64,000 bases of DNA from the NCBI RefSeq assembly GCF_964204645.1, contig NC_134026.1, positions 15,348,150 through 15,412,149 on the forward strand, written 5' to 3'. A program made the position numbers and the translations under genes. Of this stretch, positions 2,781 through 41,943 are shown piece after piece (position 1 is the first letter of the stretch; the number at the start of each line of letters is the position of its first letter). Source of the stretch: Tubulanus polymorphus. Its lineage: Eukaryota; Animalia; Nemertea. The notes below the pieces were generated by a model that did no database searches, was not told the origin of the DNA, and worked only from the letters and a program-made list of their open reading frames with translations.

Positions 2781-4440
2781 GTGACCTTTTCCGCTGGTCA
2801 ATCACTGGTTCAGCCGGTTCGGCAGGTTCAGACTACAGGATCTGAACCAAGCGCGCGCGCCTGCGGTAGTCGAGATGCCGGCACAAGCCAGCTGGTACCA
2901 TACCGGTCCACTCCGGTATGGGCACTGGTCCGGTCCAGATGTCAGCTGGTTCTGAACTTTTGGTTCGGTCATCGGTCGTGCAGTGCGTCCGATTCTAACG
3001 TTAGTCGCTACGGGATTATAGTTCGCTCTCCCACCAGGTCCAGACGCCGTGAACGTAATAAACGGGCGAGGTCTCCTTCTCGCAGGTTAAGGATAGATTG
3101 CGAGTGGGATTACGATCGTTATTGCAGAAATTTTCACCAGAATCCCCCTCATCGTTCGTCGACGTCGGTTAGCGAAGAAGGCGATTCTTCTACTGGCAGG
3201 TCTCTATCCTGTTCCAGGGACTGTCACCGAAGTCGTCATGATCGTCGGGATAGGGGAAAATTCCTGACTCAGAAGGATTTCTGTGTATTCGAAGAAAAAA
3301 TTTTAAACTTGTTATCATCGTCACAACAAGTCGTTATTGCAACTTCTACAACAGGTAAGCCTATACCTGATTGTCCGATTAGAAGTTCGCCAGCCCACTC
3401 AGTTATTCGGAATTCTGACTCTGAATTCCTAGATGCTGGGGTAGGGTCTGATTTTAATGAGGATCCGGTCCCAGAAGCGGCAATTCCTTCTGGTGTCGTT
3501 CCCGCCGCAAGCAATTTTGGGTTGCCCCATTCAATGGGGACTTCCCTGGCTCGCAACGTTTCTATGTCTCGTTCAGTTTTATCCGAACCCGCAGGGGACA
3601 TGCCATTTAGAGCAATGATTAGTGAGTTTTTTGTCAAACACGGAGCAACTCGCGCCCACAGCGGCTCCTCTGGTCGGTGAGTCAATGGAAGCTTTTCGCC
3701 CTCCGGACTCTGATCTTAATGTTTTACGCGAATCGTCAGCGGTTTCAAGAGAATTCTGCTAGAATAGATACGCAATTATGGGGTGAATGTCGCCCCGGAA
3801 CATTTTCGTTTCCCTCTCCAGAACAGGGTATGAAATCTGAAAAATATTTTAGTTCATGCGATCCGTCTATAGGTGCATTTCGCTCCCTGTATTATGCTAT
3901 TCCCGGTACTGTGGATCATAGTCATAGCTGCCTGGATGCTGATTATACTTTGATCAGCCCGTATACTGGTTCAGCGCAGTCGGGTATTCGTTTGCCTAAG
4001 TCTGGTTTGGTGGCCATGACGTCAATCCTAGACAATCTTACCAGGGTTGGTTCGTGCTCTGCGCTTTCTCAGGCAGCTTCAGATGCCGGTTGGAGAACTA
4101 GCGCACAGCTTCAACAACCGCCTCAAGCCTCGTCCGGTCATAAGAGTTCCGGTTCTTATCGGGGCAAGGGGAAGGCTCTGAGAAGGGGCTCTTCCTTTCG
4201 GAAAAACTCGGAATGAATTCTCTGGACCAATGGGAGGTTGTCTGCAGCAGGCAAACCCAAGGACGTGATTCAAGGGCTCCGGTCAATGGGCAGCTTCATT
4301 GGACCTGAAAGATGCTTGCTTATTTTCAGGTTCCAATTCACCCAAAATATTGGCTATTTCTCAGGATAAGGTGGAAAGGCCGCCAGTTCCAGTTCTCAGG
4401 TTTCCTCCATTTGGCCTCGTGGGTTTGCACCAAGTTGGTC
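2781..4440 (+). mobile_element. DIRS1-like retrotransposon remnant (gag-like region and truncated reverse transcriptase)
   Basis: GC-richer Ser/Arg-rich ORFs 2781-3680 and 3677-4216. Then PMGGCL (like the DIRS PVGGRL RT-ORF start) and WAASLDLKDA-(4-bp duplication)-YFQVPIHPKYWLFLRIRWKGRQFQF at ~4281-4400, the DIRS-type RT motif A region. Confidence 0.72.
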
Positions 4441-13860: not shown

Positions 13861-16130
13861 GGATCCGATCGAATCCAGGACATAATCCCACTGTCCAAAA
13901 TCCCACATGCCGTATTCCCAGATACAAAATACCATAAACCAATATCCCACATTATTCCGGACAAAATACCACACTCAAGTATTTTAGGAATGTAGATACA
14001 TGATAAACAAGATATGTTATTTGGTTGTTCAAGTATTTTAGGATACTTGATTATGTGTTGAATTCAATATACCCCTGGGCATTTGATCCATTTTAATAAT
14101 AAGTTATATACACTAATTATTGATTGTCTCGGTGTGCTGCTGCTGATTTCTGTTCACCTTTCATTGCAAGAAAATTAGTGATTATGCTTAAGCGATATAG
14201 ATAGAAGCAAAGACAACTTTAATCAACAAGAATCACTTAACAATACATACTTTTTTTATCTAGAAATATTTTATTTCATTTATCACTTTCAAGAGTTGCG
14301 AACATAAAATTTACAGAAAAAGAGAGTCACATAAACTGCAGCACAGATGATTCTTTTACAAAGATAAAAAAGTAGATATATAAATGATAATAATGATCAT
14401 ACAAAGTTATACTAAGTTATTTTCAATAATGACGCAGAATGACTGATACTTTGATATTATATATATCTAATATTATAATAAGTTTACCTTAAAAGCCACA
14501 TATTTTGCCCGATCCCACGAAGAAATTCCCTGATGGTTTTTTGTCCAGTATTATAATCTTCACACAGATTTTTCAAACGGGTGCTGAAGGTCGACATATT
14601 TGCGGCGTACTCGTTCGGTTGGGCGTTGTCCGATATTGTCCTGTGCAATTGCAGCTGAAACCGACGCATTGTCCTGTTGAAAGCTGGCAACAGTTCGCCA
14701 AATTGAGGGATGATGATGCCCAACGATATTAAAAAACTTACAGTTCCACGATTCGCAAATATTGTTTGTACGTGCATCATCATTGATTGTTGCCTGATCC
14801 ACGTTCCACACTGCTGGTTGATACAGAGGCGGCACCCGCCTCAGTCGTACTAATCCATCAGGTTCCTCGAACTCTCTTATAACTGCCTGTAACGTATGTG
14901 GCATTGAAATAGTCCACTAACAGCTCGACAGCTCCATCAGGAATAGTGTCTAGTAAGTAAGCGAGTCCCGCAGGAACAACATCAACCGGGAGAAATGCTA
15001 GACCATCCAGCATTCCAACAAGCAGCTGAAAATTCTCATCTTCTTTGTACAATTGTGTAAGCCCCAACTGTTGTATCTTCCTCTATGTTGACTGCGTCAG
15101 ATGAAAAAACCACCCCTTTATTTCAACTAGCCCATCGAATGCAGTGTTCAAACATTTTGAACTGCCTTTTCAAAGTCTGCCATGACGAACTCAGGATCTG
15201 GAAACAGCTCCCATTTTTCGCACTCTCTTATTATAACCTACAAAATCAAAATAGAAAACAATTTTACAAACTTAATGTTATAAGTACGAAAGCGACCCAG
15301 GAACATTCAGATTATCATATTCTTATATTTACTCCGAGATAATGTATTCTATTTAGCGCCAAAATCTTTAAATCCGAGGTATTAGCTTGTAGTAAATGAA
15401 TTGAAAGAATTTGAAATTTTCTCTGTAAATTGTTTAATTTAGATTAAGATAGATAAACTACCTGTAACATCTGGTATGTGGATTCATCTTTCCTTTCAAG
15501 TAGACAATACGCGGCTGTAATTGCAGTTTCTCCGAGTGGCACCCGGATGACGTAAACCTGTTCAAATAATGGTGGTGCCATCGAAAAGGTTCCGTCCATG
15601 AACCATGCTCTTGCTTCTCCCAATTTCCCAATACCATTTTCTGTTGCAAATATTACTATTCGCCGCCCTGTGGTTCTGTTGTCGTATAGTAAAAATCGTT
15701 CTTCTTGTCCATTGTCAAGGGAGTTAGAAGCCCATTTTCCTTCGATGACTAGTTCCTCGAGACTTTGTGGCTCTTTAGGTAGATTCTTCCTTTTTTCACG
15801 ACGAATTGACCTTTTGCAAACTTCTTCCCTTGCCATTCGAGCCCTGACACCATCATCATCAACTTCTGCCATAACCCTGCTATATATTTGGACCGGATTA
15901 GTTGCGGTCGCATCTGATGCAATTTTCTTCATCGCCAATCTTGTTTTGGTGACTGCTACGGCAGTGGTATCGGCGATATGGTTATGGTCCACTGTTTCCA
16001 TCGGATTTTCCATCTCTAGATCTGTTATGATTGCACCACGACACCCATCAGCTTTGTTTTTCGCACAGTTCCATCTTATTTGCTTTTTTGTAGTATATTT
16101 CTTCACGTACATGTAAACTATGCGAGTCAA
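13861..16130 (-). mobile_element. Mutator-like (MULE) transposon remnant with degraded transposase
   Basis: FLYWCH-like YMY..IRWNC..CRG..HNH. DDE motifs WFMDGTF (exon 15462-16130), ADFEKA and FFHLTQ (exon starting 15237) and RTNNICESWN. Stops and frameshifts present. TIR-like aaaatccca-rich end at ~13861-13980; the other end was not found. Confidence 0.85.
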
Positions 16131-19100
16131 TCATAAACATCATTGAAAATTTTACTTTTTAGAAAAAATATAATCATATTACACAAATTCATATTTAGGA
16201 GGAGATTTGCGTCTAAATACTCAAGTATCTCTACTTGAAGCGATATACCCTGTAGACTTATCCACGTATAAAAAGAAACTTTATGTAAGCTACGCATTGG
16301 TCCAACAATTTTGATCAACCATAAATAAAATGCGTAGGATATTTCATCTTAGTCGTTGAGAATTATAACTATTTATGCTGATGTCACGTGGTTCTACTGT
16401 CTCACAGTGTACATAATATAAGTCATATATGATATATGTCCAAGTTTCACTCCATCTCTTCCATGGTCTAGGTGATTAAATCTTTGTAATCTGGTTAGGT
16501 CTAGGCCTCATCTAGAACCAGGCAGTGCCATGCTACCTATTCATTTCTTCTCATATTTATGGGGTGCTACCAGTGTAATATGTTCTTCTTTCCTCTATGA
16601 TCTACGTTAATAATATGTTGACACAATTCTTCCTCTAGGAGTCCAATCGCACTTCCCAAGTGCAATCACATGCATGGGACATCAGCTTTTGTAGCTTTAA
16701 GACGCGGCTCATCTTTGCTGTCTCCAGGAATTATCATAATAGATCCCACTATGATACATGTAGATGTATATCCCATATCTCCCCCATATAATGCTAGCTT
16801 ATCGCTGTACTGCAGAAGAATGTTCCCTGATGTAACTGGAATTTGCAACCACCAAGATCTCCGTAATTAAAATAAACTAAATTATAGATTGATGACAATT
16901 GTTTATTTATAAAAGAACAATGAATTTCATATAAACTAAGAACAATAGGACAAGTGAAAATGTGAAAATGCATTGTTCAAAAAGAATACATTGTTCGGCT
17001 ACATCTTATTTCATTAACGCCGATAGTAACGTGTACTAGAGGGGTATCTTGCAATTACAAAATGATGCCACAATGAATATGTAAGGCTAAAGTTTCTCCA
17101 TTATATTTTATAAAAAATAACCCAGCCGCTGCGAAGAAACAAGGTATCATTTTTGTTAAGCCTAATCAGGAAAGAATATTTCCAACATAAATCGAATAAT
17201 TCAAAAGCTAGATTTCAAAATACATGTCCTGTTGTGAGTTAGAGTAAGCAGCTCAAATTTTAAAAAATTCAAGCATGTTTTAAAGCATTTTTCATTTAGA
17301 GTTCTGTTCGATTCAGAGTTTAAATTGGTCCATCCTAATGAGTTAACTATCAGTCAAATTTTAACTCAGTCAGAACAGTGAAACTGGCTTTTGTATTGGA
17401 CTTGTATTTTCTTGAATGGTGAAATCTTAAATTTGCTGCAAAAATGAATTATCGAAAGGGTCGTTTCAACTGGAAAAACTTTTTTGAAATTTCTACTGAA
17501 ATTTCTGTTCCTGTTTTTCCCAATTTTTGAGGGTACGTCAATTATACAACTATTTTTCTAAATAACCAGAATGGAAACAATAAGCAAGAGACTAGTTTAG
17601 CTCCCAGACCTTGGATCATTCCTACCGTGGCTTTTTCTCCAGTGGCTACTAAGCGTTCTATAGAATAAGCTTTAGTAAATATCAAAGTAACGCCATAAGA
17701 ATGGGAAGTTATGATTCAATCACGTGAAAATACTAATTATGTGCTATGAATTAAAAATCTAAAAATAAATGAAAATGCATTCTCTAAATCCAAGACAAGA
17801 ATCATTATCATCAGCATGAACAAAATACAAATGAACTTATATCTACTATTTCTGATTTTTAAATTACAACTTCAAAAACAATGGTTTTTTAAGAAACAAG
17901 AGTTTGCACACAGAAATACACAATCATTTCGACCACAATGGAGTGGACTAGTCTGACTAGTTGATGTACGAGTTCCAGAACAACGACTAGATACTAGACT
18001 AGGAGTGTTGTAGTAGGTTCGAGTCCAGACCTCGCGATATTCGGGATCTGATTTTAAACAAGTAAAATCGTTACGATATACTACTTATATTGACCCGCCC
18101 GGCTGGTATTTTCACCATAAAGAGAAGGTTTTAACTCTAGGCCGGCAGCATTTTATTTCTACGATTTTTATTTATCTGACCTGGCCAGGAAATGAGAAAC
18201 AAGGTATCATTTTTTGGCCGTAGTTTCAGTGTTTTGAAAGGTTTAAATAAGTCACGCAATTGAAGATCACAATATCCGTGATGAAACGGATAAGTAAAAT
18301 CTATGAATAAAATATGAGTAAAATCCCACAATAAATGAATCGAATGCTAAAATATGTTTTAAATAAACATTTTAGCATTCAATTCATTTATTGTGGCATT
18401 TTACTCGTCTCATATCAAGTCATCACATTGTTTTTCCAGATTTAATGTTGCTAATCCTCGTTCGGATACTAGCTTCCGTTCTAGCAAGTCTTCTCACTAA
18501 CTCTAGAATCGTTCCATGTGGCACTTTCTTCCCCTCTTCAATGAAGGGATGAATCAGATCTTTGAAGATTGCCTTCTCATCTTCTGACCATCCCTTTCGT
18601 TTTGTTTTTGTTACTATAAAGAGAGAATGAAATTTTGAGTTGGATGTCTATAAACATGACAAACATGACAAGGTGAACTAATTGAAAGGCACACCATAGA
18701 ATTCTGATGATTAATCTCATAAATTATCATAATTTCACTGATGAATATATTGCTACGTGGCATAATCACCTAAAACACTAATTTTTCTAATAATTATACT
18801 ACAATTCTACAATTATAGAACTTGTCATTGGCACAATTCGGCATTTGATTGTCGTTATAAAATATGCCCAGGTACCAACATAATATGGAAATACTGATTT
18901 ATTCTGCTATTTAATGACCCCTAGTGACCATATACAAAAACCAATATAGTGAAACTTACCAAAATCATAGAACATGTCATGTACAATCGAGTAACAATCA
19001 TTACAATCAAGTAATTGTTAGGCCTGAGTGTCATTATGACTTATGCGAATCTAAACTGTTTCTCCATCTGGAGTTTGAAATTGAGCTGACACAAATAAAT

Positions 19101-22100
19101 AGAATTCCTTCAGCTGGAGATATACATATTTACCTAATCCAACTTCTGATGGCTGTTCATTTCGTTTTTTTCTGTGGCAGATGTTTTTCAATAGGAGCAC
19201 CTAAAAGAACAAAGCGGTATTTACTGACTAACCCATGAGGCGCTAGAAGTAATAAGCGAATGGAAAATTCAAGGGAAATTAAATCATTAAAGGGTGTTCA
19301 TGTATTTGCAGTTTCTAATTGCAATTGAGCTGACACAAGTAAATAGAATTCCTTGAACTGGAGATATATGTATTTACCCGATCCAATGTCTGATGGCTGT
19401 TCATTTCGTTTTTTCTGTGGCAAATGCTTTTTAATAGGAGCACCTAAAAGAATGAAGCAGTGATTACTGACTAACCCATGAGGTGTTAGAAGTAATAAGC
19501 CAATGGAACATTCAAGGATAATCAATTCATTAGAGTTTTCATGGATTTGGCGTAAATCCATGTAAATTTCAGAATCCATGTGTTGTCAAAGAGGAAGCCC
19601 TGTATCAGAGCCCTATTTACTATAATCAGGACACCTACTCATCAATGGGGAATCTGTCTCTTCTTCAATCAACACTTGATTGGAACAGGGAAGAAATGTC
19701 AATATTATCTGATGAACTCAAGGCAGTTCCAGTGTTACATGTTAACAAGGAAATGTCCTCCTAAGAAAGTATAGTTGCCAATGTCAGTTTTCAACGATCA
19801 ATAAATCAGAGGTTTGCTAGATACTACAGCTTGTTCAACTACAAATTCAGTTATTTCAGTTGCACATACCTGACCATTCATCATCGAAATTGATAAGAAC
19901 AGGACAATCTGAAAAAGAATGAATGAAAAATCAGTGCTCAATTCTATCAAAAACTAGTCCCTCTTTGTCTAATGAAATCTTAAATTATAAAATCTTTATC
20001 TCATCTAACTCAAGATACATCCACGATATTAGCGAAACAAGAGATCATACAGGCAACACATCTTCAACTGGGCACTGGCCTACCTTGTAGCTGTATTTCA
20101 TCCAGTCCCTTGCCTTGATAATTTTGCATCACTCCATTGTCCATGGCAATGAGCAGACGAGCCACTTTCGTTTTCTCAAGGACAGAACTTGATAGTCGAT
20201 AATGATCCATATGGATATTCAAAGAGTGACCCATATGATCACACACTAATTTCAGTTCTGTAGGAGCCATATCCATTATCTGTTAGCAAACCAAATACAA
20301 AATACTAAAACAAAATCCTAATACCTTTTATCTCCCAACCCACATGGTGCCAAGGACATTATTTTTTTATATTTTTTTGCGAATTAGGAGCAGAGGGCCT
20401 ATTCCCTTATACATTTCTATTGTTACCGAGATTAGGCCTATAGTTTGATACTCAATTACGTTAACATAAATTCATAGCAAATGGCCTGAAGCACACTGCT
20501 CATATATACCTGCGAAGTTGTAGCCAGATACTTTCTCATTTTCTTGGTTCTTATATACTCAGGTTTTTCTAGACCAGGGCAAAGTGATGTAACATTTCGC
20601 ATTGCCTGGCAACCATCTAGGGGTGTCAGAGCATTCTTTGATTGCCTAGAAAAGCACAGAGCACAAGAATCAGTTTACATTCGTAACATCTATTATAGGT
20701 AGCATCTTGTTTCCGTGTAGCCTATACACTAGAGCAATATCCGATAAGAAGTCTTCTTTGAATGTGCGATATCATCTGCACGTATGTATCTTTTCTTGTA
20801 AGGAAAGTGGCCTTACTAAGGCAAATAAAGATACAATAATGCTAGGGCACCTAAAAACACAAAAATACTGTTTTGATGTCAAACACTGCCCGAATGTGGG
20901 TTCAATGCTTGGCAAATCCTTTTTTAACGGTTGGCTCGAACTGAACATGTGAAACTGCATCAGGTTTCAAAAGACATTTTTCATCCAACTATAGATCTAT
21001 AGCGGGAAACTCAAAATGATGGTTCTCAAAAAGATTTTTTCAGTTCCAGAAATTTGCGACTGAATAAGATGGAGTCTAGTGTACACGTAGTTAGGTAATA
21101 ACTTGTAACCATAACCTTACCTTGCAAATAAATATGGGTTCTTGGAAACAGATGTAGACTGTGTAACCAAAAACTCCATTGCTTCAACAAGGAACGGGGT
21201 TAAAAGAACAAAAACTTTCCTTAACCCCCGGGTACTCTTACCCCGTACCTCCAGCACCGTCATCCTTTAAATAAACAAAAATTACATTATCAATGTAACA
21301 CCTGCCATTTCTTAATTGGCTCCATAAAAGAATCAAATTTACACTAAGTCCAATAAGATATAAGTTATGAGGATCAAGTTATGGTACATACACCTTGTTC
21401 ATTATGCTTTTTTAAAATAGTTACAAGTCATTTTCCCTTGAAACGTTTTTCAGAATGGCAAGTGAGGCTATTCTAAAACAGTTTCTCAAAAAACCTCATT
21501 TAAAATATCTTACCTTTTAGCTTTTTCGGTAATGTCGAGGGATTCAACGATTTCTTCACAGTCTTGAACCGCCATGACTTTCGCGAAATCAGATGTCTTA
21601 ATTTCCTCAATTTCTGCAACTCTTCTCTTATTAGAGATTAAAATTCGAACCATTAAATGCTCAGCTAATGAGCGCCACTCAGCAGAATTGAGTTGATCTT
21701 TACGCGTCAGTGCAGAAATCTCCTTTTCTGACCAAACCTTTAGCTTAATAAGGTCAGACGTTAGTGGTATTTTGTCTACACCGTTTATTTTCAACAACTT
21801 TTGACGTCTGCTCAATATACAAGAGAGTCGGTTATTCCAATGGGCTTCATATAAAATCTTGAATCTAGAAGCTTCTTCTTCGATCTCACGCTCGTTTGCA
21901 ATGATGCCATTACTCTGTTTTAAGCAAACACATTGCTTGATGTAATGACCCTAAGAAAGGCCCAACTGTGGTGAAATACACCCTAAAGCTTTCACTGCCT
22001 TAACAACATTCCAGAAATTGCAAGGTTTTAAAATGCTGTTAAGGTCATGTTGTGTTCTGCCACAGACTGAATTAAACTGTTGAACAAAGCGAACTAGTGA

Positions 22101-24493
22101 CCGTATTTTTGTACGCACATTATCTTGATCTTTCCGTCTCTGTTCTTCCTTTGTTCCTAATCTACCTAGCTGTAACTTAGCGAAATCTCGGATCAAGCTT
22201 TCCTTTTTGCAAATGTCTACAAGACCAGGATTTGATTTTGTTTCACGCAGACCAATTAGGAGGGTTTCTAATTTTATATCATCTTCTTCATCAACAGAAA
22301 TACAGGGTAGCAATAAACATCTGCCATTCCTCAAATAATTGATTTCCGGCTGTTCATTGCATGGTTTGAAAGGGCATGACGATTTGATATGAACCCATAA
22401 GCTTTCCTTGTAATATAATCCGTAACAGAATTCGCATGGCACAAAGTCCCAAGGACGTTTCTCCAATGCTGATGATGGAATCAACCGCCTCGCCAGTACC
22501 AGTTCTCCTCGACCTTCCTTAATGACCTTAAACACAAGCAAGACAGTGCATGAAACTAGAGGATTAGATAAACCATGCAAACTATGAAAATTTAGAATAC
22601 ATGTAGTACTATTGACAAAAGGTTTGTGAGCACAGATTCAGTGGCAGAGTTAGGTATAATCGATATAAAGAAAGTCCCATTAAAAATAACAAGAACTATG
22701 AAAATGAAATATGTAAAAAAATGTTTCGGAAAAGCACAGATCATTCACAAAATTGGGAGTCCAGTTTCAGCGTGTGTATAATTGCTAGGTATATCCAGAT
22801 TTGCTCTAGAATAAATGGTAACCAGAAAACTTACTAAGACAATGGAACCAGGACATCCCAGCCTGCAGGATAGATTAATTTCAGCAAAATAGCAGCTAAA
22901 ATCAGGCAACTGAAACCTGATACCCCAAGTTGTGGGATATACATAAATCATATCCAGAAAATAAGGTAAAACTTAATACACAACTGACAGGGAGTTGAGC
23001 TATGAACTTCTGAAAACTAATACTGGACACCCAAGTTTGGGCATATAATATTATACCCATAAACAAGAGCCCCAAGGGGCACTATGGCCAGCTTGTCAGC
23101 TTTCATTAAATGGCAAATGATGCATTCTGTGGGTTATATTTGTCTAAACACACTCCCAGCTAAGATTCAATACTTGTAATTTACACAATACAATCGTGTT
23201 TTCATAAATAGCACAGACAGCGACTGGAGCTGGCAGGAACAAATACCTCAGATAATTCTTTTTCCCTTTGTCTTATTGATTTGAATGCAGAATGAGATTG
23301 AGCTTTCAGAAATATGCTCAATAAAATGAAATTGAATTGGTTTTGATATTTTTTAAGAATAGAATTTGATTGAATTTGCAGTTTGAGCACATGGCTAATT
23401 AGCATATCAATGTCATCAGTCCGATTTGAGAAAAAGCTATTTTCCAGCACTTTGCATAATTTTCAATGATATTTTCTGTAGTGCAAATAAAACTATTCCT
23501 CCCAAAAAACCAAATCAACTAAGGATTTCACAGAAATCGATCTTGAAATACAATTCTAAATCTTAAAATAAAACCCAGAAGTAAAACAGTAGATACCGCG
23601 GGTTCATGTGAACACCTGCTGATCTCTGCGGCTAAGGCAATCATAGAAGAGTCAACAGATATTTTTGCGTTCACATTTTCACGAAAAAGCTCATATAAAT
23701 TTTAACGAGGCCCTCCTTCAAAATTCAGCTACGTAGAGTTTGAAGAATGGATAATGCTTTAATGAATGATTTGTATGAATATATGCTTAGTTGCACAGTC
23801 AAAAACCCAGTTTAAAATATAAGAAATCATGATACCAAGAAATACATACCTTGGAGTTATGCTCGAAATTCCCCTTATTCTGGAGCAATAACAGACCGTT
23901 CTTTCGTTCCTTTGAGTTGACAGGCATCAGTAAAATTTTTTTTACATCATCTTCCAGACAGTGCACAGAAGTGTAATGGTAAGCAATCTTGGAAGTGAAG
24001 CATTTCCCACAATAAAAACAATAATCCACCTTTCTATAGTCTCTGCTTCCATCACGTTTTGGACGATATACAGGCAAGGTAACTAAAATTGAAATAATGT
24101 ATAACAAAATGACTCCCCTAGTGATGTAAGAAATCCTCGTGTGATTAATGACAAAATGAAACACATTCAATGTCAATGACTACTACATGTTTTGTGAATT
24201 TATGACACACATTATTTCTTTCTTGATAAATCGTGAAAAATGAAGGAATAGATTTTGAAAATTGAGATATGAAAACCTGGTAAATGATAGCTATTGAATT
24301 AGGAGGATAATTGATCATTAATACAGTTGCAGATATTTTGGCATAGAGACACTTAGTGTTATAAGGGTTTTATTATTACCTTAAAAGTCTTTAAGGAAAA
24401 TAATGAGAATGGCAGGAAAGTATGAGATAAATCTTCTGTTACAATGGAACTTGAATGCAAAATAAAATATTTGGTTATCTGTAAACGATGTAC

Positions 24494-27096
24494 CTTGGGC
24501 CATCTTAGCTTTAACACGATCGGTAACATCATCAGGATCGATATCACCGTTGTCTTCAGCAATTTCTTCTCTGTTGGCATCATATTCATGAACATGCTTC
24601 TCAGAGTCATTGTCCGAGTCATTATCATGCTCATCACTGTTTGAAGATTCGTCTGGATAATAATCCTGATCATCAGCATGACCAAGCAAATCGTCTATAT
24701 CATCATCTCTGTCATCATCATCAGTACCATCACTAAGTCTCATAGTATCTGAGATAAACGAAAGTATTAACAATTATCCTCTTCACTTTCAACTACCACG
24801 TAATAGAAGATTGGCTAATTGAATGGTAAAGCTAATAATGCAAGGCGATTAAAACATTCGTGCCCCGAAACTTGGCTTCGATTTTTACATATTCTAACTT
24901 AGGTCTATATGAAAATTTTAATCACTTCTTGTGTAAAGCACACATTTCAGTGAATTCATTTTACACATGCTGAAACAGGTTTTTTTGCTGACAGGCAGAA
25001 AACTGTAATAACAGATAAAATGCAAGTGATGCAAGAGATCCTTGTGTGATAAAGAACATTCATTTGGAAAAACAAAAACATACCATGTCAATGGCTTGAC
25101 AGGTACATTTTATCAGGAATTTATGATCAATCAAGTGAACAAATAATTTCCAACTTTTTACTCCTTCTTCATCACCACCATTTTAATTAATTTCCTTTCA
25201 AGAAAGATTAACATTTCAAAATCAACACATGAACTTACGGGATATAGTCAAACATCAATACGGTTGCAGATGTCTTGTACATAAGCATTTTCAAGAACAA
25301 TGATGAAAATGGCAGGAAAGACAAATCTACACTAGTTTGTAGCAACTTGAATGTAAAGGACCCAAAATGCATAACATTACCTAAAGCCATGTTAGCTTTA
25401 ACTTGATCTTTAACATATTCATCAGCATCGTTAATGTAGCCATTGCCATCTGCAATTTCTTTACTGTTGGCATCAAACTCATCGTCACTGTTGGCGGATT
25501 CATTATGTACAGCAACACCAGGAATTTCTTCATCCATATTGTCGTCGTCGGCATCATCATCTTCATTAAGTGCAGCAGTGTCACATCTATGCATCACCTC
25601 GAGTTTCTTACGCAGAAATCCAACAAGTTTCATCGTTTCCAAGTTAGACGATTCTGAAAGTATTTACAATAATTCTAATGACTTTCAACTACAGTGTTAC
25701 ATAAGATTGGCTAATTGTATGGTTATACAAGGCAAATGATAGTCTTTACATAATGGACATGATATGCACATCGAAAGTCACTGTGCACTTCTTGGCAAAA
25801 AATTTGGTAATGATAACTTCAACTATAATCGAGCTACAGACATTTTGCTATGCACCTAGCAGAAGGAATGTGAACTAATGTAATAGGTAATTGAATGGTG
25901 ATTAACTAAAAAATGTCTTCTTTCTGTAAACTAAATGTTAGATTAGGATCTTGAGAATTAATGTGCGGAAGAATAATTTAAATTTTTGAACTCTTGACCT
26001 TATGGCTGCAAGTCACTCAACCAACCATAAGACCATTCAGACAAGGTCAAGGTCTGCGTAGACCAGAGTACCAAAACGGATACCACTACCACTACCACTA
26101 CCAAAATGCCTAATTAGTTTCCTAGGTAAGGGACAACTAGCAAATGGTAGCTGGATGTAAAGGGCCCCAAAATGCGCGATAAAAGATCTTTGGTTAATTT
26201 AAGATGATTTACCTTGAGCCAGCTTAGCTGCCACTTCATCTTCAACATTTCTATTAGCATTACTAATGTCACCTTCGTCATCTGTAATTTCTTTACTGTT
26301 GGCATCAAACTCATCGTCACCGTTAGCAGATTCATTATCTACAGCAACACCAGGAATTTCTTCATCCATATTATCATCGTTATCACGTTCTGCAGAACCA
26401 AGCCTAGCCTTTATTTCATCCGAGTAAGGGTATTCTGAAAATATTTACAATTAATCAGTCAATGTTTCCTTAAAAGTACAGGGGCCAGTTGGTCAAACAT
26501 TCGTTGAAGATAACTGGCGGATAAATACCATACTAACAATGAACATTTGATTGTCACTACGTCAATTATTTACTGGTTAATACAATGAGATGATGTGCTA
26601 CAAAATGTCGAATGGGCAGAATGGCTAATTAGTCTCCTAGGGATGTAAGAGAAAACAAGGTTAGGAAAACCTGGTTAATGCCTATTATGGAATTTGGCGG
26701 ATAATCGAATATTAATACAATTCCAGATATATGTTCTTCAGTAATTTTAAGAACAAAGTAAAAAAATTGCTGGAAAGCACAACCCATATCGACTGTTTTG
26801 ATGCAACTTGGGTGTAAAGGACCCAAAATGCGCGATAAAAGATCTTTGGTTAACTTAAGAGGATTTACCTTGAGCCATGTTAGCTGTCACTTTATCTTCA
26901 ACATTTTTATTAGCATTACTAATGTCACCGTCGTCATCTGTAATTTCTTTACTGTTGGCATCAAACTCATGGTTACCGTTGGTGGATTCATTATGTAGGC
27001 CTACAGCAACACCAGGAATTTCTTCATCCATATAATCAACTCCATCATGTTCTGCAGAACCCAGCCTCGGCTTCATTTTATCCGATTTAGGAGATT
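24494..27096 (-). repeat. Four tandemly duplicated acidic exons with duplicated intron flanks
   Basis: Units share DANSKEI.D..G.I...V.A.MAQG and similar intronic flanks. Exon lengths 228, 222, 273 and 255 nt, all phase 1-1. Confidence 0.85.
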
Positions 27097-27143
27097 CTGA
27101 AAATATTTACAATTAATCAGTCAATGTTTCCCAAAATGTACAG

Positions 27144-27264
27144 GGGCCAGTTGTGCAAATGTTGGTTAAAGATAAATGGTGGATAAATACACAATAACCA
27201 ATCAATTTACCCTATGTAAACTAACCACTGGTTAGACTCTAACCAATGTTTGAGCAACTGACCC
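27144..27264. mobile_element. PIF/Harbinger-type MITE with CAG TSD
   Basis: TIRs gggccagttg.gcaaa..ttggtta.ag / ct.taaccaatgtttgagcaactgaccc. TSD cag at 27141-27143 and 27265-27267. Truncated duplicate at ~26482-26530. Confidence 0.65.
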
Positions 27265-27607
27265 CAGGAATTGATTTAGCCAACTCAAAGAGACCACAGA
27301 TTTTTCTCAGAATTAAGTAAATACGTCCCAGTTAGCGGAGGTATAGTTTAGGATTAGAAAGACAAATTGATAACTTCTTGGATAAGCTACATAGATCTAC
27401 GTTGCTACAGAGCTAGTTTTGCTTTTTAGCGATAATTAATTAGAGAGATAGTCATAAGAAAATCTTCAAAAACCGAAGACTGTAGAGAGGGAACAATATC
27501 TGACCGCCCGCCCACCTGGACGTACACTGGCAACAACAATAACCCTCGAGTCCTGTGGTAAAAGGGTTACAAGTAATGACATTACTTAGCTTAGTACTGA
27601 ATCTTAC

Positions 27608-28475
27608 CTCGCCACCATAAATGTTGACCATCACCATAATCAAATCGCAATTCATCACCGATATCAATATCTTTTGTGGCAAAGAGACACAAATGAGACA
27701 CACCAAATCTGCTGACTTTCTTCATGACACAGTTACTCAATTTATGGGGCGCATCGTTGATCATCCTTGCCATGGCTGATGTAGTATGCATAGCATCAAT
27801 ACTGAAAACATTTCATTTTGATTACTATTTGTCAAGAATTGTTATCATTTATTCACCTAGTATGTGAAGTCTACCAATAACAAATCAATAATCCATTTTT
27901 TATTGTTAAAAGTGAAGCTTGTAGGCCTAATGATCACTTACCATTCAAGTTTCTTTCCCACTTGATAAAAGTACATATAACAGCGTTTTGAACGATAGCG
28001 CTTCTCCCGCTTTGTAGCTTCTTCACCATTTATATACTCGCCACGATACTCGAGAACAAAATCTCCTTTTCTGAGGTCTTTAAGACTGAACACACCGAAG
28101 CCTATAGATACAGATAATATCAGTATAAGTAAGATCAGTATGATTAAGATTTTTCAGCTTTTACGGCTGCAAAAAGACAATATAATGATGACTTAATACA
28201 CTTTGATATGATTATGGATACCAGCTATCCAAGATACTTAGTCAAAGCGTATAAAATTCCATATTATCATCAATTGTAGGAAATATAAGATATAGGCCTA
28301 GTTAAGACAAAATTGCTACTGAAAATGAAGAAAACATAGAAGATGTGAAAGGAAAAACTGCAAATATCGCCTACCTATTTCATCATTAATAAATTTTACT
28401 TCAAAACCAATTGGATCACAGGAGTTATCAATGTATTCTTGACAAACTTTGGATGGTGGCACCCTTCTCCTTTTC
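27608..28475 (-). other. SET domain exons (PR-Set7/SETD8-like lysine methyltransferase)
   Basis: GFGVFSLKDLRKGDFVLEYRGEYI...CYMYFYQ...CIDA...ARMIND...HLCLFATKDIDIGDELRFDYGD, matching the canonical SET motifs GxG, YxG, RxxNH/D and ELxF/YDY. Confidence 0.88.
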
Positions 28476-29981
28476 CTGTACAAATGTATTATACATAAAA
28501 TAAATTAAATAATCTTTATCTCTTTTCCAGTTGGCATCGATCTGATGACATTTTTTGTTCTAAAACTAAAACGTCGCGACTTATGCCCCCAAATCAGGCG
28601 ATACGCCTGAGTGTAAAATATACCCAACACGTTGTGGGGCATAAGGAACCACTTAGCTCTGATGCATTTAGTACTAATTACGATTTTGGGAGTGCCCCTT
28701 TACTTTATGAGCATGTTCTACAGAGTAGTAGAAACCAAATAAAAGTGGAAAAGGTGGTGTGGGCTATTTTCGGGCACTCCCCAAAAAGTTCCTTCATTCT
28801 ACATTGTTAGTATTGATATATGGGCAGCATTCACAGCATTCAAGTTGTTAGAGCACATGTGAGTTAAGTGAACAGATTTATGATGTGTAGGCGGGTCAGT
28901 ATACCATTGACCTACATTCGCAAATTGTAATGTAAATGTTTTTCTTCTCACCATTGCAACCACTCGACATTTCTTATGTGTTATATAGATTGAATAGCAT
29001 AAAATAGCATGCAGACTGAGAATAAAAAGCATGCTTTGACTGGCTTGTCATCTAGTTTTGGTTAAGGGGGTTCGAACACGCAAGCACGTGGGTGCTAGCA
29101 CAGCGCTCCAGCCATACATTTGTCTACATTTGTTTCTTTAATTAATCAATTCATACATGGAATTGATCAATGGAATGGATTGAATATATTCACGCTGAAT
29201 AAACTGAATAACAAACTACATTCCTTGCCGTCCGCATGTGAATTCACTCATATAAACCATATTTGCAAATTGTGACTCCTAAGAAATTTCAAACTACAGA
29301 AATATTTTAGCCATACCTGTACCATGACTTTTCATTAATAAACAATACCCTATGCCAATTAACAATGATTCACACGAGAAAGATCACATATGGATGGCAA
29401 CGATGATCGTCAAAATACGCGCCAAAGTGAACTGTTGTTTTAGGTATGAAAAAATCTTTCATCTAATTCCATTTCTATGTGCCATGTTGGGTGGGTTTAA
29501 TTTGCCGAGAGCTCAGCTGTTGAACTCAAAGGATAATTTTCTAAAAACAGGGTAACATTCGCAACTAGAAATAAACCAAGTACCTCGAAATATTCACTAA
29601 AAGAAGGAACAAAAATCCAAATTATTTACTTCAAAGAGCAAAAACCTGATTGTTGATCATAATGATCTACTAAAACGATGCTTATTTTAATAAATAGCTG
29701 GCAAATCTTACCTGCATCAATAGTAGCAGGCCTCTTCTGCAAAAACTGCTTTTTAACCTCTCTGTTCAATGCTTCCATCTTTAAGCCATGCGCTGGTCAA
29801 ATAAAAAAGCCACACACTTATTAGTAACTAAGACAACATACAAAAATAACTAGATGTTACTAGACCTAGGCCTAGATGTAAAATAATTTTTGAACAGAAA
29901 AATTAAGCGGTACATCACCATTAGTGTGTTAGTATAGAAGGGAATAAATTCATCAGTTAAATGAGATAAATATGTACGGTA

Positions 29982-30407
29982 CAGCCCAGAAGAAACTTAA
30001 CTCCATTTTCGTTTGCGTTTAGTTTTATATCGCTCAAACCGCAGTTTTTTAGTTCCGAACGCGTTCGACACACGTTAGGGACGAATATCCATTTCAGAAC
30101 TACGCGTTTTGCTGCACGCTTATGGGTACAACGAAACCTTGAACGCCCGTATTAGGCGTTCATAATGTTACTGCATGTATTTTACCATGTAGTCACCCGA
30201 ATACAAGAAGATGCACTAGAAAAGAAGGGAGCTGCTATTAATATGTATAATAATATGATGTGCGCGCGCCAGACGCGTTGAATTTGAACCGCGGTAGTAA
30301 CTAGTTTGATTCGCGTTTCTATTTCGTTTTATCATAAACAAAAAACGAAAACGCAACGATCTCCAACGAACGCCGGACGCGTTATGAGTTATATTACTTC
30401 TAGGCTG
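29982..30407. mobile_element. MITE with TA-flanked TIRs (Tc1/mariner-like)
   Basis: ta|cagcccagaagaaacttaactc ... gagttatattacttctaggctg|ta. Confidence 0.55.
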
Positions 30408-30699: not shown

Positions 30700-31245
30700 A
30701 CCCAGTAACATAGCTATCCCACACTGAGTTTGTACGCATTAAGTTGTGGGATATACATAAACGTGGCATAAATCCAGCAATAGAGCTTAGATAACTGTGT
30801 GTGGACACAATTTGTGGGATATACATTATCTTATCCTAGAAACATAGCTATCCCACACTAGAAACATAGCTATCCCACACTGAGTTTGTACGCATTAAGT
30901 TGTGGGATATACATAAACGTGGCATAAATCCAGCAATAGAGCTTAGATAACTGTGTCTGGACACAATTTGTGGGATATACATTATCTTAGCCTAGAAACA
31001 TAGCTATCCCACACTGAGTAAGTTGTGGGATATACATACATGGCATAAATCCAGCAATAGAGCTTAGACTATGTTGACACAATTTGTGGGATATACATTA
31101 TCTTATCCCAGTAACATAGCTATCCCACACTGAGTAAGTTGTGGGATATACATACATGGCATAAATCCAGCAATAGAGCTTAGATAACTGTGTCTGGACA
31201 CAATTTGTGGGATATACATAATCATAACCCAGTAACATAGCTAAT
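30700..31245. repeat. Minisatellite, ~4 units of ~120-150 bp
   Basis: Repeated acatagctatcccacactgagt...aagttgtgggatatacata...ggcataaatccagcaatagagcttaga...cacaatttgtgggatatacat. Confidence 0.9.
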
Positions 31246-34200: not shown

Positions 34201-35077
34201 AACTACACAAACTAACAAAACGAAACGACGAAATTGAAAAAAATTAAGAAATCAACACTAATTCATATTTTTCTTCAACCAGAATTTATTATTTCATTAT
34301 TTTTTTTATGGAAAATATGAAGATTTGAAATATATGTTGGAAAACCATCAAAAATAAAAATTGTCGTTTCGTCTTGGAAGTTTTATATAAATCCTTTTAG
34401 GTCACCTTGTCTATCATGCCACCTGTGTAACAGAGAAATGGCGGAATTTGAGGAGAAATTAATTAATTTCTCAAAATAATGTCCATCAATCGCTCGAAAC
34501 ATACATAAAATTGGATTATTTCGAAAGGTACCTGTTTTAGTTTGTGAATGAAGCCATTAATTGTGGACTGAAGTCAATAGAAAATATATTTTTGAAGTGT
34601 TACTTTTTTCAACCATGTTTTGGCTCTTGTCATCCCTAACGTTGGTATAAGCCAATCCGATTATAAAAAGCTTACCACCAACGATTAGGTAACTAACTAA
34701 TCCACGCAATGATCCGACTGTGCACACACGATTAATCTGATTTCCCGTCACAAACTCTATATCACGTTCGCCATTCACCGTCAAATCAATTCAATTCAAT
34801 TTTATGCTTCTTTAACCGAAATGGCTCAAGGCCGTTTCGGTAGTTCATAGACATGCCACTACTACATTTTGGCAGCACCATAGTATATATATATATATCC
34901 AATCTAGTATAAAACCTTAAAATGCGCCGATATCATATATGAGACATACATCCCCTGGGGAGGACTGAGCCGCTTGGAAAAAAGTGGGATATTTTTGTAT
35001 ATCCCACTTTATTAGAATATCCCACAACAAAGGTTTTATATAGACAGTTTTCTCACATCTTGCCATATCTCTTTCCA

Positions 35078-35079
<2 letters not shown>

Positions 35080-35142
<63 letters not shown>
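35080..35142. repeat. (TA)n microsatellite
   Basis: Pure TA run. Confidence 0.95.
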
Positions 35143-35145
<3 letters not shown>

Positions 35146-37739: not shown

Positions 37740-37955
37740 CAGGTATAAAACATGCCCATTTTCAAAAGATTACTCGGAACTTACGCGGCCGAGCAACTGC
37801 GCTGCTCGGTTTACTGCTCGGACATTCTGCTCGGTTTTGATAAATTAGCCCCGCGCAATATGAGCTGCTCGATAATCTCTGCTCGGAACTCTGCTCGGTT
37901 TCAATCGTTTGTAGATCCGCGCAAATACGAGCTGCTCGGCATGCTGCTCGGAATT
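37740..37955 (+). repeat. Left terminal inverted repeat, rich in TGCTCGG motifs
   Basis: Near-identical reverse complement of 47191-47394, with an extra 12-bp aactctgctcgg duplication. Explains the twin ORFs 37752-37967 and 47116-47382. Confidence 0.93.
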
Positions 37956-39624
37956 ATGCTCGACTAGGTGTTATGTCAAATATTGCGGAGAACCGGGATT
38001 TCCCCAGATACTCAGTAGGCCTACTCCACCGCTATAGCCACATATATACTGCATGGGCAGAAAAACTTGTATACAGGCCGGGGATTTTTGACTGAAATAT
38101 CATATCGCGACCGAGTGACTTATCGTGAAATTTCATGTCTCTCTACTAATGATATAGCGAATCGCACTCTTAGGCGAGAACGACGAAGTCCGAAAAGTTT
38201 ATCTAAGCTATTGATGTCTCCGTTAAACCATAGGCCCCTACATTTAAATTATTCACTTATACAAGAAATTGCTCAGCTCGAATATTCGTTCAACTTGAAC
38301 TATTTTCAAATTCCTTTCAACTCGCATATCTGAACGACCTCCCGGCAGCAAACACAAGTATCGATTAAAGACATGCACGTGTTTACTGCTATATTAGTAG
38401 GTTACCGATAGTAACAGTAGAACGATACACGCTACACAAAATCGCCCACAGAGACATTCAGTTCATTAAATCATGTTTTTGGAAGGTGGCTAAAAATCCC
38501 CTTTAGGCCATTCAAATTTGATACCGTGTTTCTCATTTTTTTAACATTCAATATTTATTTCATGAAGAAAACGATGTTTACAAAAATTACATGCGTCTTA
38601 CAATCACCATGCAGGCATTATAGCAAAACATAAAAATACATTTATATATATAAATAGATAGCGGTCATTGAACACGCCAAGCTCAACACGCGGGAGAAAT
38701 GTTATATATATTATGAAAAAAATACATTGTTTCATCAACACGCGCGTCGGAAAAATCATTGACGAAACTCTAGTAGAAATAAAACGAGCGCTCCCGCGTC
38801 TAGTGTAATAATTTATGTTGGTTTTTTTATAAAAGACAAAATACTCCCGCCCACATCAATAAATGATTGTTCATATGATCTTATTTCTTGTCGTGCTTGG
38901 AGATGGAAGAAAATGTCTTGAAATGCGCTTTGTCGGCAATGAATCAGGTGATTTTGTGTAGATCGGGGTTCCAAGTCCATTGCTCTGGCATGCGGTGATT
39001 TCGATCCCTCGAGATGCCATATTTACTGCATTTTCTACCGAAATAAAAATAAAAAGTTGACTCCCTCATGCTCTTTTTCAATACTCCTCCAAATATTTAA
39101 TTTCAAAGTTTTTTTTAAAAACAGGTTAAGTCAAATAAACACCTGTCTGCCTCCGTCACTTTTCATTACAATAAAACTTTTCTCATAAAGACTGCGAACT
39201 TCTTGGTAGTCAGTTTAACCATTGAATCTAAAACGAACTAAAGCAGTTAAGAATTAAGCCGAAATGGATGTTATCTTAGAATTGGAACAAAACATGTCAG
39301 ATTCAAGGGTCTCATTGACAATTTAGAAAGTGAGACACTATTTAAACAAAATAAGATTTGACGACAGACGGAATAACATCGATCGATTGTTGAGTAACAA
39401 CAGTATAAGCAAATACGCGCCTAGAAATGAACAAGTAATTTAAACTGTTAATTAATCAATTAGTGCAGGCCTGTGGGAAAAAATTGGTGTGGGACCACCC
39501 TATAAAGCCCAGTCCTCTAGTCATAAATTCATTTGCGTTCATCAAGTCAACTACACTTTCATTCACCTGCGTACACTTGCGGATAAATAATAACTTAATT
39601 AGACCAGCTACAATAAATCACAAC

Positions 39625-40953
39625 ATGTATGCGTCGTCAAAAAAATGTTGGGCAGCTATTGAAAAAGCAGTGGAGAGATATAATAAGATATCCGGTGACA
39701 ATGTCGTGGCTGTAACAATGTATCGTAACAGAATTACGAACGTACATGAAATGGCAACGACAGGTACCGATTCATTTCTGAAAGTCGTGGCGGATCAAAA
39801 ACTTAACTTTGAGGCGGCCATGTCTCCTCAGCTTCCGAATGAAGAACCGGGAGCCTCAGTTTGCGATAAATCGTTGCCAGATGTGTGCGAAGTGTACGGG
39901 AAAAAATTATCTGCACTGGCCACCGACAGCGCAAGAGAACTGCTCAGTAATTTAGTTTTTGCGAGCAAAAACATATTAGGACACGGAAAAGATGTTAATC
40001 CTCATTGGGGAAAAGAGGATTTCAGAGCTCCGTGGTGGCCAGCTAATTGGCCTTGGAAAAACCCACGCTGCGATATTCGGCCAGAAAACGACCGAACCAA
40101 CAAATGGGCCGAAGCAGTACGGGCTGCGTGCGCAGATGCATATCGTTTTCATGATATGGAACATTTGACTGGTGAGTAGCAATTCTTGAAGTTTTATTAT
40201 ATATGATAAATATTTTAACTGCTAAATCATATTGAGAATCATTTCTGTTTAATTGGCTTTAAAGTCTTTATCAATCGAGAGAATTATTTATTTTAATAAC
40301 GCATAAGCGTTGATGGAATTGACGATTGAAACAATTCGCCCGCCACGGTAAAATGCATGTAGCAAATTCGACCGTCTAGTACTGCCCCTAGGTATAACTA
40401 AAGCGGGAAAAACGAACTAAGAGGGTGGTACAAAACTTTAAAAACCGTCTCACTAAAAGCCGTCCAATCATTATGAAGGTGGTAATTAATAATTATATTA
40501 ATGGAACTGTGGTCGGGTCCTTAAATACCCTAAAATTCTGAGCTTCCCCCTCAACTTCTGAAAATTGCCTCTGTAAATTTTTTTTCAACTCAATTTGTGA
40601 ATTTAACCCGTACTTATGCATAGGCATATAGCCCATTGACCGGACACCTCCCTACAATTTGCAATTAACTCACCACAATAGTCACATTGGTACCACTTGC
40701 CACATCTAATATAAAGGCCGTTTCTCTATCATTCATTGTTTTGTGTAAGCAGTGAAAAGGTCAAAAGAAATGGGAACTAATTTATATACAAATTTTATAG
40801 TTTTCAAAATTTTTTTCAAGATTTTTACTGGGGGGATGGGTATATTTACCGAGGGGGGATTATTAACTACATTCGTGTAAACAAGTTATCTCAAGAAAAT
40901 TACACGAAACTGGACCCTTCAAATTCTGATTTGACTGATATGTAGGAACCATA

Positions 40954-40989
<36 letters not shown>

Positions 40990-41016
40990 TGTATGTATGT
41001 ATGCATTGTATGTATG

Positions 41017-41079
<63 letters not shown>

Positions 41080-41836: not shown

Positions 41837-41943
41837 ATTTAACAATTTTACAAATAAAAATTAGCTGTCCAATGTTTCAATATCTTTTTCTCAATCTATG
41901 CAACGTCTGCATATTATTGCATTTTTTCCTTTTTATCTCGGTT

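What the first reader, a model, noticed from the sequence alone, without database searches (positions are those of the whole stretch)
18423..28475. Tyrosine recombinase fused to a PR-Set7-like SET methyltransferase, acidic repeats and a Myb/SANT-like tail: a candidate chromatin-writing Crypton-like element
Seen: 15 phase-compatible GT-AG exons give one ~1150-aa frame running SET domain, four acidic repeats, CxxC..H and CxxC..H..C motifs, a helical region, YR-like motifs (KRRVAE, RGK, TKKMRK, MGH, HY), then a WSEDE Myb/SANT-like end. Established: R-K-(H)xxR-H/W-Y is the tyrosine recombinase catalytic signature, and Cryptons are intron-containing eukaryotic DNA transposons encoding a YR. I do not recall a SET domain in the described Crypton groups. 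Inference: this mobile integrase carries its own lysine methyltransferase and could mark chromatin at its donor or target site, or on an excised circle.
Basis: partly seen in the sequence, partly recalled or inferred. Interest (0 to 1): 0.9.

Follow-up and report, generated by a model that had tools for sequence, protein, structure and literature searches.

The report
Jumping gene carrying a histone methyltransferase
This is a broken copy of a widespread animal gene family, likely a DNA transposon, whose single protein joins a DNA-cutting tyrosine recombinase to a SETD8-like domain that is predicted to methylate histones where the element binds, which would be a jumping gene carrying its own chromatin-marking enzyme.

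Summary
The fusion is real; this copy is broken. Fourteen phase-matched GT-AG exons on the minus strand (15 with an optional 66-nt exon; 1149 codons) run SETD8-like SET, acidic exon duplications, two zinc-finger motifs, tyrosine recombinase (YR) and a helix-turn-helix tail. It lies on a conserved hydrophobic column and is shared by a second haplotype; the YR exons drift at a neutral-looking rate. The architecture is a large animal family: SET plus YR in 50 of 120 listed relatives (echinoderms, fish; bivalves too), one unspliced 1483-codon genomic frame joining both, 99%-identical copies on different chromosomes, and 96% identity between two bivalve genera. A relative folds as a YR; the SET matches SETD8 best. 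Other members carry OTU, BRCT or FHA domains. It works like a Crypton, lacks CryptonA/F marker domains, and may be Repbase's CryptonV, which I could not check. Ten literature searches found no description. The scan noted a YR-SET fusion once before, in a protist (unchecked). Methyltransferase activity, element ends and circles are untested.

The parts
28375..28475 (-). Exon 1 found: basic N-terminal patch and the helix before the SET core; upstream exon with the start codon not found
   Evidence: aligns with the N-termini of family members; family profile matches SETD8 from position 10
27942..28101 (-). Exon 2: N-half of SETD8-like SET (GxG and YxG motifs)
   Evidence: Pfam SET E 2.7e-5; KMT5A E 5.6e-7
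27608..27801 (-). Exon 3: C-half of SET (N-D in place of SETD8's N-H; F-D-Y-G-D, F at the Tyr/Phe switch position)
   Evidence: Pfam SET E 1.7e-5; best match 3f9w, SET8-Y334F; same intron position as L008
24494..27096 (-). Exons 4-7 (27096-26869, 26434-26213, 25653-25381, 24748-24494): acidic linker built by tandem exon duplication
   Evidence: linker disordered in the model of relative P0279
23850..24082 (-). Exon 8: C2H2-like zinc-finger motif
   Evidence: sequence; weak Pfam zf-C2H2_11 E 0.11; region confidently folded in relative P0002
21514..22526 (-). Exon 9: C2HC-like motif, YR core-binding domain, start of catalytic domain (Arg857 at 21623-21621)
21951..21953 (-). In-frame TAG (codon 747) that truncates the protein before the catalytic domain
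   Evidence: L/I/V in 142 of 151 aligned relatives; unchanged in run X1 and X2 contigs
20084..21264 (-). Exons 10-12 (21264-21121, 20645-20510, 20279-20084): YR catalytic domain with Lys902, Arg978, His1004, Tyr1013
   Evidence: same intron positions in L001
19134..19908 (-). Exon 13 (19908-19870), optional 66-nt exon (19443-19378) and its 67-nt out-of-frame tandem twin (19200-19134): linker
18423..18613 (-). Last exon: three-helix HTH tail (WSEDE) and stop
   Evidence: tail of P0002 matches homeodomains at Z 7-8.3
34981..35143 (.). Candidate, unproven element end: perfect 12-6-12 inverted repeat at 34981-35010, 69 bases from a (TA)32 tract at 35080-35143; its arm motif recurs at 30715-31214, 31804 and in intron 8 (22932)
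   Evidence: only such site in 64 kb, 0 in 8 shuffles; motif map; link to the gene is inference

Best explanation
The locus is a stop-broken copy of an animal SET-YR gene family that is likely a Crypton-like DNA transposon: intact copies would excise as a circle and re-insert with their tyrosine recombinase, while the tethered SETD8-like domain is predicted to methylate H4K20 on nucleosomes next to the bound element. Shown: exon structure, stop, domain content, YR fold of a relative, SET-YR fusion across phyla, near-identical dispersed copies. Inferred steps: (1) the HTH tail, zinc fingers and YR core-binding domain bind sites at the element ends; (2) YR cuts and rejoins through a 3'-phosphotyrosine, giving a circle (the Crypton model, itself unproven); (3) the SET domain, on a long disordered leash, docks on nearby nucleosomes and writes H4K20me1 in cis; (4) the mark helps the element gain copies, most simply by favouring replication licensing of donor or circle, since clean YR excision leaves no break to copy from. 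My odds: mobile family 0.85; this copy dead as a recombinase 0.9; SET catalytically active in intact copies 0.6; licensing as the purpose 0.15-0.2.
For: YR: AlphaFold model of relative P0002 (41% identical to the window model over 733 aa; pLDDT 78.5) matches YRs and type IB topoisomerases in all of its top 16 VIA rows (best Z 12.3, rmsd 9.8, 256 aligned, archaeal Xer; Z 11.4, rmsd 3.2, 254 aligned, integron integrase); Foldseek top rows XerH, lambda Int, Cre, best E 1.3e-3; P0007 passes the Phage_integrase cut-off. Arg857 kept in 147 of 150, Glu860 145 of 149, Lys902 85 of 91, Arg978 86 of 86, His1004 79 of 82, Tyr1013 80 of 82 aligned relatives. SET: family profile hits SETD8 at E 3e-39, Cryptosporidium SET8 at 4e-29, the best non-SET8 at 4e-21; catalytic Tyr kept in 21 of 22 non-redundant domains (read from the alignment). 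Fusion: 50 of 120 listed hits carry both (many are isoforms); L008 has one stop-free 1483-codon frame from SET C-half to the first catalytic Arg; SET occurs on both sides of the deepest split of the YR tree. Mobility: 853-aa copies 99.1-99.8% alike on contigs of different size in Lineus; SET-YR copies 98.0-99.8% at five sea-urchin loci, one 1116-aa protein identical on 5 contigs in a carp, Dreissena copies 99.7%; Dreissena versus Mya 95.8% over 1438 aa, SET 133 of 134; several unrelated lineages per host. Dead copy; 9 non-synonymous to 2 synonymous differences between haplotypes, exon and intron rates alike, 11 of 1528 and 11 of 1371 sites (p 0.0002 against dN/dS 0.1, 0.04 against 0.3). SET folds apart from the YR core, linker pLDDT under 50. 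Tethered PR-Set7 promotes pre-RC assembly (PMC10968542, passages); no free break is expected from Crypton YR and the mechanism is undemonstrated (PMC13565253, passages).
Against: No element ends, empty sites or circles were shown; mobility rests on protein-level copy patterns. The His of HxxR is absent (Thr or Arg in 81 of 86 relatives, Lys here). SETD8's N-H is N-D in 14 of 22 SET domains including this one, so activity is not assured. SET is missing from many gene models: 0 of 45 long hits had a Pfam SET (one has half a domain) and 2 of 41 in the closest clade; this may be incomplete models or real loss. Some members carry OTU or BRCT instead, so SET is dispensable in some lineages. [quoted passage not shown] Foldseek found no PDB match at E 0.001 or better for the YR model. 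The polymorphism counts are small and come from one study. The fold was tested on relatives, not on the window's own spliced product.
Confidence: 0.62

Rival explanations
1. Same mobile family, but the SET domain is a nucleosome-docking or signalling module rather than a cis-acting writer: it steers the recombinase to chromatin of a given state, or methylates a non-histone protein to blunt the host's damage response. The N-terminal slot is then a swappable chromatin adaptor.
For: The slot also holds OTU (Tubulanus), BRCT (Saccostrea, Pecten, Anneissia) or FHA next to SET (oysters), modules known for damage and ubiquitin signalling (own knowledge). N-D replaces N-H in 14 of 22 SET domains. A basic N-terminal patch precedes the SET in most members.
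Against: GxG, YxG, RxxN and the catalytic Tyr are all kept across deeply diverged lineages; 7 of 22 keep N-H. A pure docking module would be expected to lose these.
Confidence: 0.22
2. This locus is a domesticated remnant: the stop is tolerated because the host keeps a 746-aa product with SET, acidic linker and zinc fingers.
For: The locus is at flank depth in one unbroken contig, as a single copy would be. The X1 contig over 27719-30004, which holds the SET exons, has 0 differences in 2286 bases against 30 in 3701 over the YR part. All splice sites are intact.
Against: The stop lies 437 bases before the end of exon 9 with five or six junctions behind it, a usual trigger of nonsense-mediated decay (own knowledge). 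The invariant stretch includes introns and flank, so shared haplotype explains it as well as selection. No RNA run was listed, so expression is untested.
Confidence: 0.08
3. The family is a set of fast-evolving host chromatin genes expanded by ordinary duplication, not by its own recombinase.
For: Many introns at conserved positions across animals; no ends were defined here.
Against: Copies 99% alike lie on different chromosomes in four hosts; 96% identity between two bivalve genera includes the low-complexity linker; catalytic residues are kept, unlike domesticated DUF3504 genes (PMC3212892, passages).
Confidence: 0.05
4. SET exons and YR exons belong to two neighbouring genes.
For: No transcript was seen for this locus; many annotated relatives lack SET.
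Against: Phase-matched exon chain; unspliced SET-to-YR frame in L008; 50 of 120 single proteins with both.
Confidence: 0.03

Closest known systems
Crypton DNA transposons (CryptonF, S, A, I; Kojima and Jurka 2011, PMC3212892: section 5 and search passages read)
   Same: Eukaryotic, YR as the only mobilising enzyme, no reverse transcriptase seen nearby, present in sea urchin, molluscs and fish; some carry a second domain (C48/Ulp1 peptidase, GCR1_C).
   Different: That paper says the only recognizable domain of animal Cryptons is the YR (DUF3504). Here no DUF3504 or GCR1_C hit in 62 relatives scanned; instead SET, zinc fingers and an HTH tail; no His in HxxR.
CryptonV (Kapitonov and Jurka 2012, Repbase Reports; not read, seen only as cited in PMC8869645, PMC4455052 and PMC5753468, passages)
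   Same: Animal YR DNA transposons; some families insert specifically in microsatellites, and a (TA)32 tract lies beside the candidate end here.
   Different: Unknown: I could not see CryptonV sequences or domain maps. I put about 0.6 on this family already being in Repbase under CryptonV or a sister name; the three papers that name CryptonV give no domain content in the passages read.
SETD8/KMT5A/PR-Set7 (H4K20 monomethyltransferase)
   Same: Best sequence and structure match, including the helix before the core.
   Different: Fused to a recombinase, multicopy; N-D for N-H in most members; in this copy F at the Tyr334 switch (1 of 21 domains).
SETMAR/Metnase (recalled, no call)
   Same: A SET methyltransferase fused to a transposon enzyme.
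   Different: Single domesticated primate gene, H3K36-type SET, DDE mariner transposase; here a SET8-type domain rides in a still-spreading YR family.
Fanzor-carrying Cryptons (PMC13565253, passages) and fungal Starships (search listings only)
   Same: YR elements with accessory cargo; Fanzor is discussed as a way to restore the donor site.
   Different: No Fanzor or DUF3435 hit in the relatives scanned; cargo is fused into the recombinase protein.

Membership tests
Tyrosine recombinase superfamily | Core-binding plus catalytic domain fold | tested here: met
   Model of relative P0002: residues about 317-445 and 460-696 match Xer, integron and lambda integrases. Not folded for the window's own product.
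Tyrosine recombinase superfamily | Catalytic Arg, Lys, Arg, His/Trp, Tyr | tested here: met
   All five present in the window DNA and conserved in 93-100% of aligned relatives, but behind the stop.
Tyrosine recombinase superfamily | His of the HxxR motif | tested here: not met
   Lys here; Thr or Arg in 81 of 86 relatives.
Crypton (broad sense) | YR without reverse transcriptase or DDE transposase in the element | tested here: inconclusive
   ORFs of 105 aa or more between 12 and 36 kb show only the gene's exons and a MULE-like fragment; ends undefined, so membership of neighbours is unknown.
Crypton (broad sense) | Dispersed near-identical copies | tested here: met
   Met for relatives; this copy looks single.
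Crypton (broad sense) | Short terminal direct repeats, no TIRs | tested here: inconclusive
   No long TIR pair flanks the gene; ends could not be set without a genome.
Crypton (broad sense) | Circular excision intermediate | not testable with these tools
   Needs inverse PCR or long reads.
CryptonA | DUF3504-type YR | tested here: not met
   0 of 62 relatives hit DUF3504 at E 0.01-0.05; weak hits are to Phage_integrase.
CryptonF | C-terminal GCR1_C domain | tested here: not met
   No GCR1_C hit on exon 14 or in 62 relatives.
CryptonV | YR clusters with Repbase CryptonV proteins | not testable with these tools
   No Repbase or Dfam access; the review asked for is not held.
CryptonV | Insertion in microsatellites | tested here: inconclusive
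   (TA)32 at 35080-35143 beside a 12-6-12 site; the other end is not found and the window has two more long TA tracts.
SETD8/PR-Set7 | Closest SET subfamily by sequence and fold | tested here: met
SETD8/PR-Set7 | RxxNH cofactor motif | tested here: not met
   N-D here and in 14 of 22 domains; N-H in 7 of 22.
SETD8/PR-Set7 | H4K20 monomethylation of nucleosomes | not testable with these tools
   Needs an enzyme assay.
Myb/SANT domain | Myb-type three-helix HTH | tested here: inconclusive
   Three-helix bundle predicted; best rows are homeodomains, Z 7-8.3, a range the tool calls common; no Pfam Myb hit.

The most novel reading that the evidence does not exclude
A phylum-spanning, still active and horizontally moving group of animal YR transposons carries its own SETD8-type enzyme and uses it to license replication of the donor locus or excised circle, solving the copy-gain problem of break-free YR excision; OTU, BRCT and FHA cargo in sister lineages are alternative ways of exploiting host cell-cycle and damage signalling.
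Probability: 0.17. Interest if true: 0.92.

Novelty: new variant of a known kind. Interest (0 to 1): 0.66.

Why it matters
Transposons are usually targets of histone methylation. A family that carries a SETD8-type domain inside its recombinase across fish, echinoderms and molluscs would be a transposon writing chromatin marks for itself. Crypton transposition has not been shown experimentally (PMC13565253), and this family has 99%-identical, full-length copies in sea urchin and carp-family fish, so excision, target choice and the role of SET become directly testable. It also means that many 'SET domain-containing', 'KMT5A-like' and 'set-1-like' annotations in aquatic animals are probably transposon copies. 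The copy in this window is only a fossil pointer to the family.

Tried and rejected
Word-seeded search with exon 9 against longer proteins found nothing among 5295 candidates; the unindexed search then found 1429, so the blank was a sensitivity limit. Viral contigs: 25 pattern matches, none a relative; viral fold library gave generic integrases only, so no viral origin was shown. Profile of alignment A2 against PDB sequences: only weak rows (XerA E 0.36; Sgf11 zinc finger E 0.03). No whole genome is held, so copy number and ends rest on contigs. No RNA holder listed: no evidence either way. Runs X2 and X3 have holes over the YR exons: not interpreted. A short intron ending at the stop's TAG was considered: six in-frame GTs lie 45-144 bases upstream, none with a consensus donor, and each would remove conserved helix. 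No TIRs or shared ends from self-comparison or from 12 fetched loci; the GTGGGATA motif is absent from those loci. The careful tree did not finish; the quick tree (SH-aLRT only, 59 of 59 chosen rows, picked by hand from named long proteins) is used. Horizontal transfer was not tested with a clade test or host genes. The 'Tudor' name of P0211 is a source label that Pfam did not confirm. The protein atlas did not answer. No complex was predicted. Literature: ten searches; none listed a paper on a SET-YR transposon; passages of PMC9406493, PMC4738411, PMC13465315, PMC4157794 and PMC6681497 were read and do not describe it. Subscription journals and Repbase Reports are outside the library; supplements were not opened, and those of PMC3212892 could bear on Crypton membership.
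Full report
Observation. The gene is on the minus strand. Fourteen exons between 28475 and 18423 have AG and GT ends and chain in phase over 13 introns. The chain is not open: codon 747 is TAG (21951-21953), in the middle of the 1013-nt exon 9. No start codon was located; exon 1 starts in phase 2 and relatives begin with Met and a basic patch just there.

Domains. Exons 2 and 3 each pass the Pfam SET cut-off and match SETD8/KMT5A best among PDB sequences. A profile of 20 SET-bearing relatives hits SETD8 at E 3e-39 from the helix before the core onward; the best non-SET8 row is at 4e-21, and the folded SET of relative P0279 gives SETD8 structures in its top ten rows. In 22 non-redundant domains the catalytic Tyr is kept in 21; SETD8's N-H is N-D in 14 (this copy too), N-H in 7; only this copy has Phe at the Tyr334 switch (read by eye). 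Exons 4-7 are 31% acidic and arose by exon duplication. No window exon hits a recombinase family in Pfam, so the YR call rests on relatives: P0007 passes the Phage_integrase cut-off, and the model of P0002, 41% identical to the window model, aligns to Xer, integron, lambda and Cre recombinases and type IB topoisomerases in its top 16 rows, over both the core-binding and catalytic domains. Arg857, Lys902, Arg978, His1004 and Tyr1013 are present and conserved; the His of HxxR is not. The tail is a three-helix HTH whose best rows are homeodomains at middling Z.

This copy is broken. The stop sits on a column that is Leu, Ile or Val in 142 of 151 relatives. A contig of run X1, which differs from the window at 22 places and by a 6-base insertion over 2.9 kb, carries the same stop, as does a low-depth piece of run X2 (three runs, one study). 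Between the two haplotypes, exons 9-13 differ at 9 non-synonymous and 2 synonymous sites, and exons and introns vary alike, which rejects strong purifying selection on small numbers. Depth over the YR exons equals that of unique flanks and one 3701-base contig spans them, as expected for a single copy, though the tool warns that depth is no copy number.

The family. Exon 9 has 1429 relatives at E 0.001 or better. The closest are from nemerteans and molluscs; the window groups with them at SH-aLRT 100. A second search listed 120 of 190 hits from echinoderms, fish, molluscs, an annelid and a hemichordate; all 120 carry the YR and 50 carry SET, with many isoforms among them. In the closest clade SET shows in 2 of 41 listed proteins and in further Dreissena and oyster isoforms; 0 of 45 long hits of the first search had a Pfam SET. 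The strongest proof of fusion needs no gene model: locus L008 has a stop-free 1483-codon frame from the SET C-half through tandem repeats and zinc fingers to the first catalytic Arg, and shares the intron inside SET with the window; L001 shares the YR introns. SET-bearing members lie on both sides of the deepest split, so the fusion is old or arose twice. Other members carry OTU, BRCT, or FHA beside SET.

Mobility. Copies 99% alike occur at separate loci on different large contigs in Lineus, Strongylocentrotus, Dreissena and Chanodichthys. Dreissena and Mya share a SET-bearing family at 95.8% over 1438 residues, repeats included, which suggests horizontal transfer but was not tested against host genes. 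Single hosts hold several unrelated lineages. Ends were not defined. One lead: the only perfect inverted repeat with arms of 11 or more and a 6-8 base spacer in the window is a 12-6-12 site at 34981-35010 (0 in 8 shuffles), 69 bases from a (TA)32 tract, and its arm motif recurs in the gene's upstream tandem array and in intron 8. That geometry is the textbook YR site (PMC3212892) and CryptonV families target microsatellites (PMC8869645). The link to this gene is inference, about 0.3.

Mechanism. I commit to: end binding by HTH, zinc fingers and core-binding domain; YR excision to a circle and re-insertion; and a SETD8-like domain on a disordered leash that methylates H4K20 on nearby nucleosomes. 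Only the anatomy is shown. Why carry it? YR excision leaves no free break (PMC13565253), so copy gain needs another route; tethered PR-Set7 promotes pre-RC assembly and stabilised PR-Set7 causes re-replication in mammalian cells (PMC10968542), although Drosophila origins were unaffected by H4K20 methylation (PMC5009726 abstract). The main rival is a docking or signalling role, favoured by the swappable cargo and the N-D change.

Known or new. It works like a Crypton; it fails the CryptonA and CryptonF marker tests (0 of 62 relatives), and the 2011 paper states that animal Cryptons encode only a recognizable YR. CryptonV could not be compared; given the family's abundance in zebrafish, sea urchin and oyster I think it more likely than not that Repbase holds it. 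Ten searches of the open library found no account of a SET-YR transposon. The scan's notes hold one unchecked protist YR-SET fusion and no sequence look-alike. Verdict: real architecture, dead copy, large and apparently undescribed SET-carrying variant of YR transposons; interest 0.66.

Noticed in passing
window 37741-47393: 9.6-kb element with 146-nt terminal inverted repeats 99% alike and a near-matching 8-base flank duplication. It holds a plus-strand ORF (39439-40179) with an Nrf1 DNA-binding domain, Pfam E 1.4e-13, and Cys-rich minus-strand exons (43109-45197) with no Pfam hit that recall a KDZ/Zisupton-type transposase (recalled, untested).
   Followed up: partly
window 14484-16130, minus strand: MULE-like transposase fragments in several frames with a FLYWCH finger (Pfam E 1.7e-6), 2.3 kb downstream of the gene.
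   Followed up: partly
window 30704-31243, 31804, 22932, 34981-35025, 13891-13950: A GTGGGATA-type motif recurs in a tandem array upstream of the gene, in intron 8, in the 12-6-12 site and, degenerate, near 13.9 kb; possible binding sites of the element's protein or an unrelated repeat.
   Followed up: partly
window 18307-18415: 54-nt inverted repeat (83%, 1-nt loop) directly after the stop codon of the last exon.
   Followed up: no
proteins P0434, P0389 (Dreissena) and P0184 (Mya): 95.8% identity over about 1440 residues including the low-complexity linker: candidate horizontal transfer between bivalve genera.
   Followed up: partly
proteins P0007, P0128, P0304, P0208, P0253: The N-terminal slot of the family holds OTU, tandem BRCT, or SET plus FHA in different lineages.
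   Followed up: partly
L008 1700-3300; L007 1-1340; window exons 4-7: The SET-to-YR linker is built from different tandem repeats in each lineage (18-nt units, 111-nt units, duplicated exons), suggesting that length and charge matter, not sequence.
   Followed up: no
window 27719-30004: Run X1 contig shows 0 differences over 2286 bases around the SET exons, against 30 in 3701 over the YR part.
   Followed up: no
window 61467-62156, plus strand: Broken frame with a weak GIY-YIG hit (E 0.005, below cut-off), Penelope-like by recall; 2772-4216 holds long frames with no Pfam hit.
   Followed up: partly
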